A stretch of 64,000 bases of DNA from the human T2T-CHM13v2.0 reference genome, Homo sapiens. Both the position numbers and the translations under genes were made by a program. How positions within the stretch are numbered: position 1 is the stretch's first letter; every line of letters begins with the position of its first letter. Of this stretch, positions 15,880-48,634 are shown in pieces. The notes beneath the pieces were generated by a model. It saw nothing but the letters and a program-made list of their open reading frames with translations. It ran no database searches and had not been told where the DNA came from. Location: assembly GCF_009914755.1 (NCBI RefSeq), contig NC_060930.1; one strand, given 5' to 3'.

Positions 15880-17600
15880 CACAGTTTCTTGAGTATCCAT
15901 CCAGAGATTTTTATGCACTTGAAAAAGATATATATTCTTTTCTCTCCTTTTCACTCGTTGTTTCATATCTTTTTTTTTTTTCAGCTAGCAGCATATATTG
16001 GAGATCTTTTGTTCTTTTTTACACCTTAATAATATTTCCTTGTCCAGGTCCCTTTTTAATGGACATTTAGGTAGTTTCCAATCTTTCTCTCTTACGTTGT
16101 TGCAACAGATAATCTTGTACATACATCATTTTGCATATGTGTGGGTACAACTGTAGGATAAAGACTGTGAAATGAATTGCCAGGTCAAAGGGTAGGCACA
16201 TTTGTAATTTTAATAGATATTGCCATATTGACCTTTGCGTCCATCCAATTTATTTCCCCTCCAGTGATAAATGAGTTCCCTTTACTCCAAGCCTCACCAA
16301 CTGAGTATGTTATCGGGGTTTTGGATCTTTGCCAATTTCAGCAGCAAATAATTGTATTTCAGGGTAGTTTTAACTTGTATTTTTTTGTGAGTGCTGTGAA
16401 CATTTTTCATATTTTAAAGAGCCTTATTATATTTACTTTTCTATGAACTGTTTATATCCTTTACTCATTTTTAAATGGATTAACCATCTTAAAAAATTAA
16501 TTTGCATGAAAACATGCATGGTGGGGAAATTAGGTCTTTGTCTGTGATGGAGGAAGTAGATATTTTCCTGATTTGTCATTTGTCTTTTTGACTTTGCTTG
16601 TAATGTTTATTGCATAGAGAATTTTCATTTTATGTTTTCATGATAGAATTTTATTAACCTATTCTTTTATAATGTCTGAATCTTATGTTGGATAAGTTGT
16701 TCCCATCTCAACTTATTAAATATCCTCTCATGCTTTCTTCTACTATTTTGGGGTTTTGATTTCTTACATTTGGAATTTATCCAGGTGTAAGGTGTGAGGC
16801 ACGGATCCAACTTTATCTTTTCAAGATGGCTTCTTCTGTGTTGATTCAACACCACCGATCAAATAATCCACTTTCTCTTTACTCAATTGGGATGGCATCT
16901 ATATAATGTATTACATTCCCAGATGTGTTTCAGTTTATTTCTGGATTCTTTATTTTGTTCCATAGACGTGTCTGTCTGTTCTGAGGCAGTACCATACTGT
17001 TTAGTTACTGCCATTGTAGAATATAGAGTTGAGTGTGACAGCTCTTTTAGAATTTATCTAACAGGGTTTCCAGTTTTCACTGTATACCATCCTTGCCCCT
17101 CAAAAAGAGTATGTATGGTGGGCCCTCTGTATCCACAGATTCTGCATCTGCAGATTCAACCAACCTCATTGAAAACATTCAGGAAAAAAACACAATAAAA
17201 ATAACAATACAATGATGAAAAATATACAAATTTTAAAAACAATACAACAACTAATTACGTAACATTTACATTGTATTAGTATTATAAGTAAGCTAGAGAT
17301 GATTTAAAGTATATAGGAGGATGTGCATAGGTTATACGTAAATATGGCACCGTTTTATATCAGGACCTGAGCATCTGTGGATTTTAATATCTATGGGAGT
17401 CTTGGAACCAATCCCCCATGGACACTGAGGGACTGCTGTATTTTAATATCTGGTATATATATTCCCCATTCATTGTTCTTCTTATTCACATTTTCTGAAA
17501 TAAATCTTGTTTATTGGCCCATATGAAATTTTGAATCACTACGTCTGCATTTTTAGAAATGCACATCTGAGGTACATGTTTACCAATACCTTTAAAGCTT
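15880..17600 (-). mobile_element. Old L1 (L1ME-like) 3' fragment, interrupted by MER2
   Basis: ATGGACATTTAGGTAGTTTCCA and ATTGCCAGGTCAAAGGGTA; minus-strand KIKLDPCLTPYTWINSK resembles L1 ORF2 KLDPFLTPYTKINS. Confidence 0.85.
17116..17438 (-). mobile_element. MER2 (TcMar-Tigger) DNA transposon
   Basis: Consensus blocks CTAGAGATGATTTAAAGTATA and GGAACCAATCCCCCATGGA; degenerate TIRs; TA TSDs at 17114-15 and 17439-40. Confidence 0.9.
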
Positions 17601-30730: not shown

Positions 30731-32504
30731 TTCATTGTAATTGCTGATCAAACTGTTGAAGCTAAAGACAAAGGGAGAATCTCGCAAGCAACTAGAGAGA
30801 AGTACAAGAGATTCTTAATAAGACTTAGAGCTGACTCCTCATCAGAAACCATGAAAGCCAGAAAGCAGTGGAATGCTAATTCAAAGTGCTGAAAGATGAA
30901 AAACTGTCAATCAAAAATTCTATACCCAGCAAAACTATCCTTCAAAAATGATCAAGAAATTAAGACATCTCCAAATAAACAAAATCTGAGAGAGTTTGCA
31001 CTACTAGACGTGCCCTACAAGAAATGTTACAAGGAGGCCTTTAGGCTGAAATGAAGGGACACCAGAAATTTAATCCACATGAAGAAATTAAGAACACTGG
31101 TAAAGGTAAATAATTACATAACAAATTATACAAGACAATATTAATGTATTCTTTTGGTTGTAAGTCCTCTTTTTCCTATCTGATCTAAATGACAACTACA
31201 TAAAACAATAAATATAAATGTATGTTCATGAGAACATATGCACAAAGATGTGATCTGTGACAATAGTAACATAAAGTGAAGTATGGAGCTGCACAGCAGC
31301 AAAGTATTAGTATGTAAATTTTTGAAACACAAAAACTGCCAAAACTTATTAAGGAAGAAATAGGAAATCTAGATTTTTCAAAAAAAGAAAACTCAGGACA
31401 AGATTTCTTCACTGGTGAATTCTACCAAATATTTAAAAAAGAATTAACAACAGACATTTAAAAATACTTCAATAGAAGAGGAGACTAAGTTAGAACACTT
31501 CCTAACTTAGTCTAGGAGACCAGTATTACTACAATTCCAAGCAAGACAAATACATCACATGAAAAGAAAACTACAGACCAGTATCTCTTGTGACTATAGA
31601 TGCAAAAATCCTCAACAAAATACTTGCAAACAATCCAACAGCATGTTAAAAAGATTATACACCATGGCCAAGTGGGATTTATCCTAGGGATGCTTAGTTG
31701 TTTCAACATATGAAAATCAATCAATGAAACACACCATATTAATAGAATAAAGGGGCAAAATCATAATCAACTTAGAGAAAGCATTAGAGAAAAATCCATC
31801 CCTTTCATGATTAAAAAAAAAACACATAGAAAACTACTGAAAGTAGAAGGAAACTTCCTCAATATGATAAAAGGCATCTATGAAAAACCCACAGTTGGCA
31901 TCACACCCAGTGGTGAAAGACTGAAAAGAAAACTTTCCCCCTAAGGTCAGAAGCAATCAAGGTTGTCAGCTCTTGCCAATTTCTATCAAAATTTCAGCTG
32001 CCTTTTTTTCTTTTTTTTTTGCAGAAATTGACAAACTGATCCTAAAATTCATATGGAAATTTGAAGGATTCAGAATAGCAAAAACAATCTTGAAATAGAA
32101 CAAAATTGGATTACTTACAATTCATGATTTTAAAACTTACTACAAGGCTACAGTAATCAAGATGATGTGGTACTGGCATAAGGATGAGCAAATAAATCAA
32201 TGGAATAGAATTGAGGGTCCAGAAATAAACCCTCACACTATAGTCAATTGATTTTCAATAAGACTGCCAAGACAATTCAATAGGGAAATAATAGTCTTTT
32301 CAACAAGGGTTGCTGGGACAACTGGATATCCACATGCAAAAGAATAAGTGTTGATCCCTACTTAACAACGTATACAAAAGTGAACTAAAAATAAATCACA
32401 GACCTAAATATGAGACAAAACTATAAAGCTATTTGAAGGGGTGTAAATCTCTGTGAACTTGGGTTAGGAAATATTTCTTAAATATGACATAAAAAGCACA
32501 AGCA

Positions 32505-32845
<341 letters not shown>

Positions 32846-33784
32846 TTATAGTTTTTAAAATTAAAACTTTGGTACATCAAAAGACACTACCAAGAGTATG
32901 AAAAGACAACCCACAGAATGGGAGAAATGTTTGCAAATTCTATATCTGATAAAGGTTTAGCATCTAGAATAAATATTTTTAAAAACCTCTTACAACTCAA
33001 CAAAAACAACCCAATTCAAAAGAGATGAATAGACATCTTTCTAAAGGTAATACAAATGACTAATAAGCACATGAAAAGATGTTCAACATCATTAGTCATT
33101 AGGGAAATGCAAATCAAAACAACAATGAGATACCACTTTATACCCCCTTAGGATGGCTAGAATTTATTTAAAAAGGAAAAATAACAAGTGCTGGTGAGGA
33201 TGTGGAGAAACTGGAACCCTCAAACATTGTTGGTAGGAATGGAAAACATTGCTGGTGCAGCTGCTGATAAAAACAATTTGGCAGTTCCTCAAAAAGTTAA
33301 GCACAGAGTTACCACATGACTCAGCAATTCCATTTCTAGGTATATGTCCAAGAGAATTGAAAATATACGTTCATAAAAAAGTTATACACAGATATTCATA
33401 ATAGCCCCAAAGTGGAAAGTAACCCTTCAACTGATGACCTGAAATGAAATATTGTAATGGAATATTATTCCATTATCCATTCCATAGAATGGAATATTAT
33501 TCAGCCATAAAAAAGGATGAAGTCCCAATGAATGTTACAACATGGATGAACCTTGAAAGCATGCCAGATGAAAGAAGGCAGAACAAAAAGCCGCAGATTA
33601 TATGATTCTATTTATATGAAGCATCCCAAAGAGGCAAATCTATAGAGACAGAAAATAGACTACTGGTTGTCAGGGGTTGAGAGGGAGAAATTCAGCGGTA
33701 TGGGGTTTCTTGATAAGGCCATGGAAATGTTCTGGAATTAAATAGTGGCGATGTTTGCACAAGATTGTAAATATACTAAAAACC

Positions 33785-40774: not shown

Positions 40775-41335
<561 letters not shown>

Positions 41336-41899
41336 TGTTATTACAATAATGCATCTCTTACAGGGTTTCAAATAACCCTTTTTGAACTCAGAGTTTCAAA
41401 GAATTACAAGTTTGTGATATAGGAAATCATTATTCACGTTGTACAGATGAACATCTAAGTGTCTTTCAATCATAATCTTGGTTTATGACTCACTTTCAGT
41501 ATTGGTTTCAAGTATATCTTCATGTATTCATTCATTTATTTATTTTTATTTAATTAGCAGCTGTAATCTTAGCACCCGGGGTAACACTAGGACGTTGACA
41601 ATGACTTTTATTGTGTCACCATCCCAGGACAGCCCATATCTCTTCCACTACCCAAGGAAAAGGCAGCCTTAACCCTGTGTTCCTAATTTTGTTCCTTTGG
41701 GGTTTATATAGTTTTATCACATCTGTATAAATTTCTAAAATGTATATTTTTAAATTTGGGGGATTTTTTTCATAATATAAAAAGATACAAAGCTGTAATA
41801 AAAGAAAAGAAAGGAGAGAAAAAGGACTTTTCCACAAGGCATTAACTTATGACCAACACTAGGTAAAGCTCAAAGGGAATCTGGTTTCATGGCTATGTA

Positions 41900-42480
41900 T
41901 TTATAGAATTATTTTTTACTGAAAATTGTTTTTCAGATATTTTAGGAACCCACTGTGGGAGACTTCAAATGAGTGGGAAGGAAAGCAACTCATATCTCAG
42001 TGAAATTTTTATTAATCGGGAATTACTGTTGAGAATTTGGAAGACCTTATGTAAGATTGAGAGGGCAAAAATTGAAACATTCACATGAGGGCTCCATTAG
42101 AAAGTTTGAAAGGGCTTGAAGAGACATGTTAAAAATAATTCAAAAAAAGAGAGGAGAGGTAATTGCCAGATATGGAGGGTTTTTATATGGCCAGGGTGAT
42201 AAAACAGGCTGGTTATTAACCTGGCAGGTAGAGAGAAAACCCATTGATGGTAATTGGGGAAATTAGCGCTCAGGATGTAATTCTTCCCCTTCCACCATTC
42301 TTTGGAGGAAATAAATGCTTTATTGAAGCGATTCCATGAGAATCTTTACAATTTCTTGGAAGAGTTGGTGATTCAAGAGGTTTTTGTGACTGCAAAACAG
42401 TTATTTAAATCATTTCCTGAGGAAAGAAGTTTGGAAGAAGATAAAAATAATTAATGCCAGTTTAGCTATTAGTGTGGGAA
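41900..42480 (+). mobile_element. Ancient L1-clade LINE ORF2 relic of non-mammalian type
   Basis: Colinear motifs IELFFTEN (41903), LWET..GKQLIS (41953), YGQGDKTGWLLTWQV (42186-42230), EEINALLKRFHENLY (42305-42349), with stops and frameshifts. Confidence 0.72.
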
Positions 42481-42570
42481 TGATAGGGACTTAAAGAGGT
42501 GTTTACCAGCTGCACTCTACTTTATGTGGCTCAAAAAACAGTGTCACATCTTGGCAAACTTGAGAGCTGA

Positions 42571-43042
<472 letters not shown>

Positions 43043-43611
43043 GTGAGTCACCATGTCTGGCTGAGATTTGTTTTTACTAGTGGTTTGTTGGTCGATGCTT
43101 TGAGTCTAACCATTTTGTACTTCGGTGTCCTACTTTAGGAGAGAATCTGAGCTTGTGACAGTGAACAGTGGAGAAGCAAAATCACTTTAGTACAGGACTT
43201 TAGTAGAGTGAATATGTAATAGTATAAAGCGGACTGAACACTTCTGGGAAACAGTAACACAAACCATAGCTGGACTGGATTTATGTGATTTCTTAGGTAC
43301 GTGAAATAAGTGATTGTGACTTCACAAGCTCATTGGGTTAAGTCACAGAATTTTCACTCTGAACACAGAATGTAGATTATCATGTTTTTTTTTTTAACAA
43401 ATGCTGCCTGAATTATGGGTATTTGTAACTTTGCTTAGCTTTTAAAGAGCCTATTCCTAATTTTCTGTTATACAGAAAACAGCTATGTGCATATTTGGTA
43501 TTTTTTTAGTATTAAGTGCATACTGCCAGGTTCTTTTGCATTAAGTACTAGGATATTTTCCTTTTCATATCAGTCTGCTCTTGTCTAATCTTTTCAGTGG
43601 CATAATATTCT

Positions 43612-47719: not shown

Positions 47720-48045
47720 GAATCTATTGTGAACATTTTTACATATCAAGAAACATTGGTCTACAGGATGACTTTTAATGGCTGCATTTATATAAGTCAT
47801 GTGAGCGTCTATCTTGATTTAGTGATCCAATTTCCTATTGTTGATTATCTAGGTTGTTTTTAAATTTTCTTCTCTTTCTTTTTCTCTTTCTGTCCCATTA
47901 CAAATAGAGCTGAGATGAATATTCTTGAACCTACACATTTGTGCACTTGTCTGATTAGTTCTTTAGGAAATATTCTAGAAATAGAGCTACTGGTTGAAAG
48001 GACAAGCATATCTGATAAGTACATTTTCAAGGCATTTAACATGTT
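47720..48045 (-). mobile_element. Old L1 (L1ME-like) 3' fragment
   Basis: TTTTAATGGCTGCAT, TTCCTATTGTTGATTATCTAGGTTGTTT and TTTCTTTAGGAAATATTCTAGAAATAGA. Confidence 0.75.
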
Positions 48046-48634
48046 TTCCTTTCATCCTAAACAAGCCCTTAAGTTGGAAATTATTCTTCAAGTCTCATTG
48101 AGCCTCGGGGAGCTCAGTGCTTCATGAAAGTCTGAGGCAATCACAAGAGTGTGGGAGGTGCTGGAATAGGAGAAGTCCAGGCAGTGAGAGGAAGGTGGGT
48201 CAGGAAAGGCTTCTGAGAGGATGCCACATCTAGACAAGGACTTCCAGAGTCTGTCTGTTCACAGCTGTGCTCAACGGTGCCATATTAAACGCATGCATGA
48301 GAAAGAATTCCTAATAGACTTTATAGCTAAATGATTTTTTTGCATGACTAAATAGCATCAGCTGAAATATAAAACATAAAACAAGCTCCTCAAAATGAAT
48401 CAAAGCAAAATAAGAGAATTTCTAATAATTTATGAGGCCTGTTTATTTCGACACCCTTTAAGTAGGCATAGGAAAAAGATGAGGAAATGATCGTATTTTG
48501 TAGCAATTAATGAGGTCAAGTTATGAGACTCTGTCATCAAGTTTAATTCATATCTTCTTTCTTTAAAATTGACATTTTTGCACTTGACTCCTTATAGTAA
48601 CCTATAGAAGATTTGGGAGAAGAGTGGAATATTC

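What the first reader, a model, noticed from the sequence alone, without database searches (positions are those of the whole stretch)
41850..42480. Fossil of a fish/amphibian-type L1 lineage in a primate genome
Seen: decayed + strand motifs IELFFTEN-x(8-9)-LWET...GKQLIS, YGQGDKTGWLLTWQV and EEINALLKRFHENLY, in the order of the L1 ORF2 segment between endonuclease and RT. Established: mammalian L1 has WFFE(R/K)INKID(R/K)PLARL at the middle motif, whereas non-mammalian vertebrate L1s typically have YExG(D/E)KxGxLLAWQ. Inference: this is a very old L1/Tx1-clade lineage distinct from L1M. It may be unannotated or correspond to rare entries such as X9_LINE or MARE6. Its survival could reflect exaptation. 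The ORF track does not show it.
Basis: partly seen in the sequence, partly recalled or inferred. Interest (0 to 1): 0.72.

Follow-up and report, generated by a model that had tools for sequence, protein, structure and literature searches.

The report
Ancient non-mammalian-type LINE-1 fossil
This is a broken scrap of a LINE-1 jumping gene that differs from the usual mammalian kind and likely dates from before mammals, a type of relic already reported elsewhere in the human genome.

Summary
All the motifs are present at 41903-42349 on the + strand, spread over three frames with many stops. Their spacing matches the 'tower' segment of human L1 ORF2p (baseplate, lock, PIP helix) within 3 codons.

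The central motif was used as a search query. Its only hit at E<=10 among 1,286 candidates (P0127, E=1.0, unnamed) is an L1 ORF2 linker, with the motif at the predicted position. Anchored on that motif, the PIP helix beats all 2,000 shuffles. The upstream baseplate match is only moderate.

The lock motif matches P0127 at 11/21 residues but mammalian L1s at 2-4/21. A human L1 DNA profile misses the fragment, and it lacks L1's A bias. So it is not an ordinary L1M.

The label 'fish/amphibian' could not be tested against a named sequence. X9_LINE membership and exaptation were not testable either. Two more human fossils of this type turned up, on chr1.

The class is published: Frith 2022 lists human L1 fossils aligned to coelacanth and zebrafish L1 proteins, plus 137 pre-amniote L1 fossils. 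Verdict: real, a new or unlisted member of a known kind.

The parts
41882..41997 (+). Decayed equivalent of the ORF2p tower baseplate (about residues 261-300), broken by three frame changes and a stop
   Evidence: 16 of 36 aligned residues identical to human ORF2p with a lowered frameshift penalty; 7-87 of 2000 shuffles reach the score; domain limits from PMC10830420
41998..42176 (+). Poorly alignable interval whose length fits the tower helices; homologous DNA is present in other records
   Evidence: spacing; P0006 32/42 and part of P0005 align here with different indels
42177..42239 (+). Tower-lock position (around human residues 364-384) carrying the non-L1M motif GDKTGWLLTWQ
   Evidence: 11/21 identical to P0127, 17/21 to P0005, 2-4/21 to 118 mammalian ORF2p; position from the P0127-human alignment and numbering check
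42305..42349 (+). PIP-box helix equivalent (human 404-419)
   Evidence: anchored score above 2000 of 2000 shuffles on the mammal profile; 15-66 of 2000 with P0127
42350..42424 (+). Weak continuation towards the RT; no RT sequence detected beyond it
   Evidence: 12-15 of 39-40 identities over 42307-42424 to four mammalian ORF2p; no EN, RT or C-terminal score above background in 39-46 kb

Best explanation
The stretch is a frameshifted, stop-ridden, non-coding remnant of the tower segment of a LINE-1 ORF2 gene, and it likely comes from an old L1 lineage outside the mammalian L1M/L1P line that inserted early and has since decayed. Shown: the motifs, their order and spacing, L1-linker homology, and the mismatch with L1M at the lock motif, in DNA and in base composition. 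Inferred: the parent element copied itself by target-primed reverse transcription like other L1s; the rest of the copy was lost or eroded beyond recognition; the lineage belongs to the diverse pre-mammalian L1 pool still active in fish, frogs and lizards; the insertion predates at least part of the mammalian radiation. It encodes nothing now. Slow decay in old single-copy DNA is the default reason for survival, with local regulatory constraint possible but untested.
For: The only hit at E<=10 among 1286 candidates for the central motif is P0127. P0127 also retrieves 137 human loci (of 150 scored), and the 30 fetched are L1 (88-99% to an L1 ORF2). The anchored PIP helix beats 2000 of 2000 shuffles and 29 of 29 control loci. 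Lock motif: 11/21 to P0127, 2-4/21 to 118 mammalian L1s; 0 of 200,000 simulated decays of a human L1 reach the observed score at 25, 35 or 45% divergence. An nhmmer profile of 41 L1 copies finds the window's ordinary L1M pieces (E 8e-65, 3e-32, 5e-6) but nothing here at E<=10. Composition is A 33%, T 31% against A 42-45%, T 23-26% in the window's L1M; fish L1 is A 33%, T 31% (PMC7140322). P0005 and P0006 have this locus as their best human match (E 1.5e-8, 1.1e-7), and P0005 keeps the motif. Two other human loci carry the same motif type.
Against: P0127's database E-value is only 1.0, and it was found with this motif, so motif scores against it are circular. With that motif zeroed, P0127 does not score unanchored (805 of 2000). 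No Pfam family at E<=10 and only unrelated weak PDB matches for the frames searched. The upstream baseplate is moderate and resembles human L1 more than P0127. No named fish, amphibian or reptile ORF2 could be obtained. Composition also resembles the flanks (A 31-32%, T 27-35%), so it may reflect age rather than lineage. The DNA profile is mostly young primate L1, and the simulation used substitutions from one copy only.
Confidence: 0.82

Rival explanations
1. A very old but ordinary mammalian L1 (L1ME/L1M5-type) whose lock region has drifted to resemble the non-mammalian motif.
For: The baseplate and PIP parts align to mammalian ORF2p as well as or better than to P0127; 73 of 120 mammalian linkers score at or above 99 of 100 shuffles. 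No ancestral L1ME or marsupial consensus was available.
Against: All 118 of 120 mammalian linkers in which the motif was located are of the WFxExxxKxx type. Simulation gives 0 of 200,000 at three divergences. Codon-anchored DNA identity to human L1 is 30/63 and 21/45, against 64-66% for the window's L1M. The homologue P0005 already has the non-mammalian motif. No A bias.
Confidence: 0.08
2. Chance resemblance in AT-rich single-copy DNA.
For: No library hit; unanchored scores are weak; a motif pattern with 2 mismatches matches 62 places in the genome.
Against: Five motifs are colinear within 3 codons; the anchored PIP test gives 0 of 2000 and 0 of 29 control loci; only 3 genome matches at <=1 mismatch (a lower bound).
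Confidence: 0.05
3. A Tx1-clade relic such as MARE6 rather than L1 proper.
For: Tx1 relics exist in human (PMC5753468 Table 3; 2 + 12 L1-Tx1 fossils in PMC9004415). No RT is preserved to place the element.
Against: The baseplate and PIP helix align to L1 ORF2p directly. From recall, not tested: Tx1 linkers carry a different motif at this position.
Confidence: 0.05

Closest known systems
Pre-amniote and pre-tetrapod L1 protein fossils in human (Frith 2022, PMC9004415, Tables 4-5)
   Same: Short non-coding human segments aligned to non-mammalian L1 ORF2 (five aligned to coelacanth or zebrafish L1; 137 further pre-amniote L1 fossils, 22 already RepeatMasked).
   Different: The five L1 loci of Table 4 are on chr3, 8, 9, 13 and 18, not chr6 or chr1. 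The Table 5 coordinates are on GitHub and could not be seen, so this locus may or may not be listed. Age and conservation were shown there but not here.
Mammalian L1M/L1P ORF2p tower domain (PMC10830420)
   Same: Baseplate, lock and PIP helix in the same order and spacing; PIP helix and baseplate residues partly shared.
   Different: Lock-region motif unrelated (2-4 of 21); no DNA-level hit; no A bias; no reading frame.
P0127 (unnamed 172-aa L1 ORF2 linker)
   Same: Near-identical lock motif (11 of 21); weak anchored PIP match (15-66 of 2000).
   Different: About 13 residues shorter upstream; its baseplate does not score against the window; host unnamed.
X9_LINE (L1) and MARE6 (Tx1), Repbase (PMC5753468 Table 3)
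   Same: Listed human repeats of the L1 and Tx1 clades with names outside the L1M/L1P series.
   Different: Only their names were seen; no sequence was available, so identity is untested.

Membership tests
L1-clade LINE ORF2 | Tower segment with baseplate, lock and PIP helix in order and spacing | tested here: met
   (PIP strong, baseplate moderate)
L1-clade LINE ORF2 | APE endonuclease upstream, RT downstream; RT phylogeny | tested here: inconclusive
   No EN or RT signal in 39-46 kb; the fragment covers the linker only, so no RT tree is possible
L1-clade LINE ORF2 | ORF1, 3' poly(A), target-site duplication | tested here: inconclusive
   Internal fragment; no clear flanking duplication; ORF1 was not searched for
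Mammalian L1M/L1P | WFFE(R/K)INKIDxPL lock-region motif | tested here: not met
   2-4 of 21 identities to 118 mammalian ORF2p; 0 of 200,000 simulated decays at each of three divergences
Mammalian L1M/L1P | DNA similarity to human L1 and strong sense-strand A bias | tested here: not met
   No nhmmer hit at E<=10 while control L1M pieces hit; A 33%, T 31%. The profile is mostly young L1
Fish/amphibian/reptile L1 lineages | Best protein match to named non-mammalian L1 ORF2 | tested here: inconclusive
   Best match is unnamed P0127; no named reference retrievable; assigning the motif to fish/amphibians is recall
Fish/amphibian/reptile L1 lineages | A and T about equal on the sense strand (fish L1, PMC7140322) | tested here: inconclusive
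   Matches, but the flanks are similar
X9_LINE / MARE6 | Match to the Repbase or Dfam consensus | not testable with these tools
   No repeat library; only names seen
Exapted ancient TE fossil (Frith 2022 sense) | One-to-one orthologue in non-mammals and phastCons conservation | not testable with these tools
   No vertebrate genomes; homologues P0004-P0006 are unnamed, so constraint cannot be calibrated

The most novel reading that the evidence does not exclude
The locus is an uncatalogued insertion of a pre-amniote L1 lineage that survives under purifying selection as a regulatory element downstream of CD83. Together with the chr1 pair (L104, L129) it marks at least two undescribed extinct L1 families in the human genome, recoverable through the tower-lock motif.
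Probability: 0.2. Interest if true: 0.55.

Novelty: new member of a known kind. Interest (0 to 1): 0.3.

Why it matters
It adds direct evidence that human ancestors carried several L1 lineages before a single L1M line took over, in line with PMC9004415 and PMC5381506. The fossil lies in the fast-evolving tower region, where Pfam and a human-L1 DNA profile see nothing. The lock motif served as a marker: one pattern scan and one follow-up protein search found two more human copies of another family. If orthologues show constraint, the locus becomes a candidate ancient regulatory element about 44 kb past CD83.

Tried and rejected
No signal: Pfam on three frames; PDB on two of the three frames and on P0127; word-based homologue search with frame residues 84-150 (0 of 43 candidates); Rfam found only Alu-derived and sub-threshold matches.

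No human paralogue of the window fragment: DNA search, protein searches (other hits E>=0.5; L003 and L004 translated and judged chance) and a tight pattern (written to admit this locus). All are lower bounds.

Attempts to get named non-mammalian ORF2: the search with human ORF2 listed 120 of 163 hits, all named ones mammalian apart from one rat/cellular-organisms cluster. Viral and prokaryote contig scans gave nothing relevant (the 47 genome-contig loci gave no hit below E 0.05). Paper text and supplement searches were empty. The Boissinot FASTA supplement is cut at 400 characters per cell, so it could not be used.

The ESM Atlas gave no result, and earlier scan findings were not open. The resemblance of 42059-42157 to human ERSK...SRR was rejected as about 15 codons off register. 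Window versus L104 and L129 DNA: not above shuffles (137 and 123 of 300), so they are not called the same family.

Full report
OBSERVATION. All five motifs are in the sequence on the + strand: IELFFTEN 41903-41926, LWET 41953-41964, GKQLIS 41980-41997, YGQGDKTGWLLTWQV 42186-42230, EEINALLKRFHENLY 42305-42349. They use all three frames, which hold 12, 12 and 20 stops over 41843-42501, so no protein is encoded. A human L1 ORF2 was taken from the genome as reference (L013; Pfam RT and endonuclease). Its numbering was fixed with six residues named in PMC10830420. Measured from the central Lys, the window motifs sit at -96.3, -82.7, -73.7, +35.7 and +46.7 codons, against -99, -85, -75, +34 and +45 in human ORF2p. 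They correspond to the tower baseplate (254-300), the lock region (374-382) and the PIP helix (404-419).

IS IT L1? Direct library searches were blank (Pfam; PDB for two of three frames). phmmer of one frame over 1.84 billion representatives gave 3 hits at E<=0.001: P0004 (98%), P0005 (71%) and P0006 (73%), all short unnamed ORFs. P0005 and P0006 have this locus as best human match and differ from it by indels, so they are homologous DNA, probably orthologues (inference). A profile of the central 48 residues with P0004 and P0005 returned 1 protein at E<=10 among 1286 candidates: P0127, E 1.0. That E-value alone means little.

NON-CIRCULAR TESTS. I tested the flanks, which were not in the query, with a frameshift-aware aligner and dinucleotide shuffles. 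Downstream, anchored on the motif, a profile of 20 mammalian linkers (20 of 120 kept after removing near-duplicates) scored above 2000 of 2000 shuffles in three band widths; P0127 was reached by 15-66 of 2000. Among 30 of 62 human loci matching a motif pattern, this locus scored 31.8 and the other 29 scored 10.8-20.4. Upstream is weaker: 96-178 of 2000 for the profile, and 7-87 of 2000 for human L1 when the frameshift penalty was varied afterwards (16 of 36 identities). Against P0127 it is nil (834-1355 of 2000). Without anchoring, the mammal profile ranks the fragment 7th of 12 listed window peaks (88 of 2000), and P0127 with the motif zeroed fails (805 of 2000). No endonuclease or RT remnant was found in 39-46 kb.

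IS IT L1M? Over 21 residues at the lock, the window matches P0127 at 11, P0005 at 17, and 118 mammalian ORF2p (of 120; motif not located in 2) at 2-4. Random decay of a human copy at 25, 35 and 45% divergence never reached the observed score (0 of 200,000 each; substitutions only, one source copy). An nhmmer profile of 41 L1 copies found the window's ordinary L1M pieces (E 8e-65, 2.8e-32, 5.3e-6) and nothing here at E<=10; that L1M is 64-66% identical to primate L1. The fragment is A 33%, T 31%, against A 42-45%, T 23-26% for the L1M and A 47%, T 17% for the human tower. Fish L1 is A 33%, T 31% and mammalian L1 A 42%, T 21% (PMC7140322), but the flanks are also near A=T, so this shows age or lineage, not which. 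Baseplate and PIP resemble mammalian L1 at least as much as P0127. The PIP box is reported in all vertebrate L1s examined (PMC5381506), so it does not discriminate; the lock motif does.

LIMITS ON 'FISH/AMPHIBIAN'. No named non-mammalian ORF2 could be retrieved. The evidence shows 'non-L1M L1'.

OTHER COPIES. No paralogue of the window fragment was found (lower bounds). The pattern scan exposed L104 (chr1:36.80 Mb), which reads RLKQTNCESGNKVGELLVWQLK and scores 71 against P0127 (shuffle maximum 54 of 1000). The scan selected it on part of that motif, but the RLKQ match lay outside the pattern. Its protein found L129 (chr1:165.7 Mb, E 0.01), 66% identical in DNA over 83 bases (score 167 against a shuffle maximum of 126 in 300). 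Neither is DNA-similar to the window fragment above shuffles. This suggests at least two old non-L1M families in human.

MECHANISM. Most likely a copy of an old L1 inserted by target-primed reverse transcription (established for the clade, inferred here). Only about 550 bases of its tower-coding part remain recognisable, and it is non-coding. RefSeq lists no element over it; the nearest is a silencer at 48037-48237, and CD83 ends about 44 kb upstream. Constraint cannot be judged because the homologues' hosts are unnamed. Exaptation is plausible, since PMC9004415 reports strong conservation for its oldest fossils, but it is untested here.

KNOWN CONTEXT AND WHAT I READ. PMC9004415 (abstract, results parts 1-3 of 4, methods, supplement part 1 of 2 plus a term search) lists five human L1 fossils aligned to coelacanth or zebrafish L1 on chr3, 8, 9, 13 and 18, two L1-Tx1, and 137 further pre-amniote L1 fossils (22 not new). 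Their coordinates are on GitHub, unseen, so this locus may be among them. PMC5753468 (passages, section 7 part 1) lists X9_LINE under L1 and MARE6 under Tx1, without sequence. PMC5381506 (passages, supplement part 1): mammalian L1 is monophyletic, while fish, frog and lizard hold deeply divergent clades; its FASTA supplement was truncated and bears directly on the motif claim. PMC10830420 and PMC7140322: passages only. PMC13732488: one passage naming X9_LINE. PMC12129022: passages, not used. PMC5203782: supplement search, no hits, one file not searched. Searches for the locus or family (listings only) showed no paper on it, which is weak evidence.

VERDICT. Real; an L1-clade fossil (about 0.9), of a non-L1M lineage (about 0.82); a fish/amphibian-like origin is likely but unverified; function is unproven. 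New member of a known kind, interest 0.3.

Noticed in passing
L104:1333-1605 (+) = G000:C1:36799065-36799337: Second human L1-linker fossil with a non-mammalian-type lock motif in a 91-codon stop-free stretch; scores 71 against P0127, shuffle maximum 54 of 1000; single copy by DNA search.
   Followed up: partly
L129 = G000:C1:165715330-165715440 (-): Paralogue of the L104 fossil (18/32 aa, 66% DNA over 83 bases), with a weak extension into the PIP helix. A candidate low-copy family; X9_LINE identity untested.
   Followed up: partly
window 31270-33600 (+) and about 16710-17030 (-): Ordinary old mammalian L1 ORF2 fragments, mostly unmasked in NCBI's file; the first is 64-66% identical to primate L1. 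Used as positive control.
   Followed up: yes
window 40924-41205 and 42779-43061 (-): Two Alu copies flank the fossil (Rfam SRP matches).
   Followed up: no
window 42238-42307 (+): Weak Rfam mir-133 match (21.5 bits against gathering 55.5, E 0.17); probably chance.
   Followed up: no
one search matches on C1, C2, C7, C9, C10, C13, C16-C18, C21, C22: 27 of 87 pattern matches are near-identical copies of one sequence, probably a segmental duplication or repeat. Several other matches read like mutated L1M lock motifs. Loci were not available to check.
   Followed up: no
L050:554-3550: A contig in the viral collection holds an L1 ORF2 65% identical to human ORF2p, probably host DNA.
   Followed up: no
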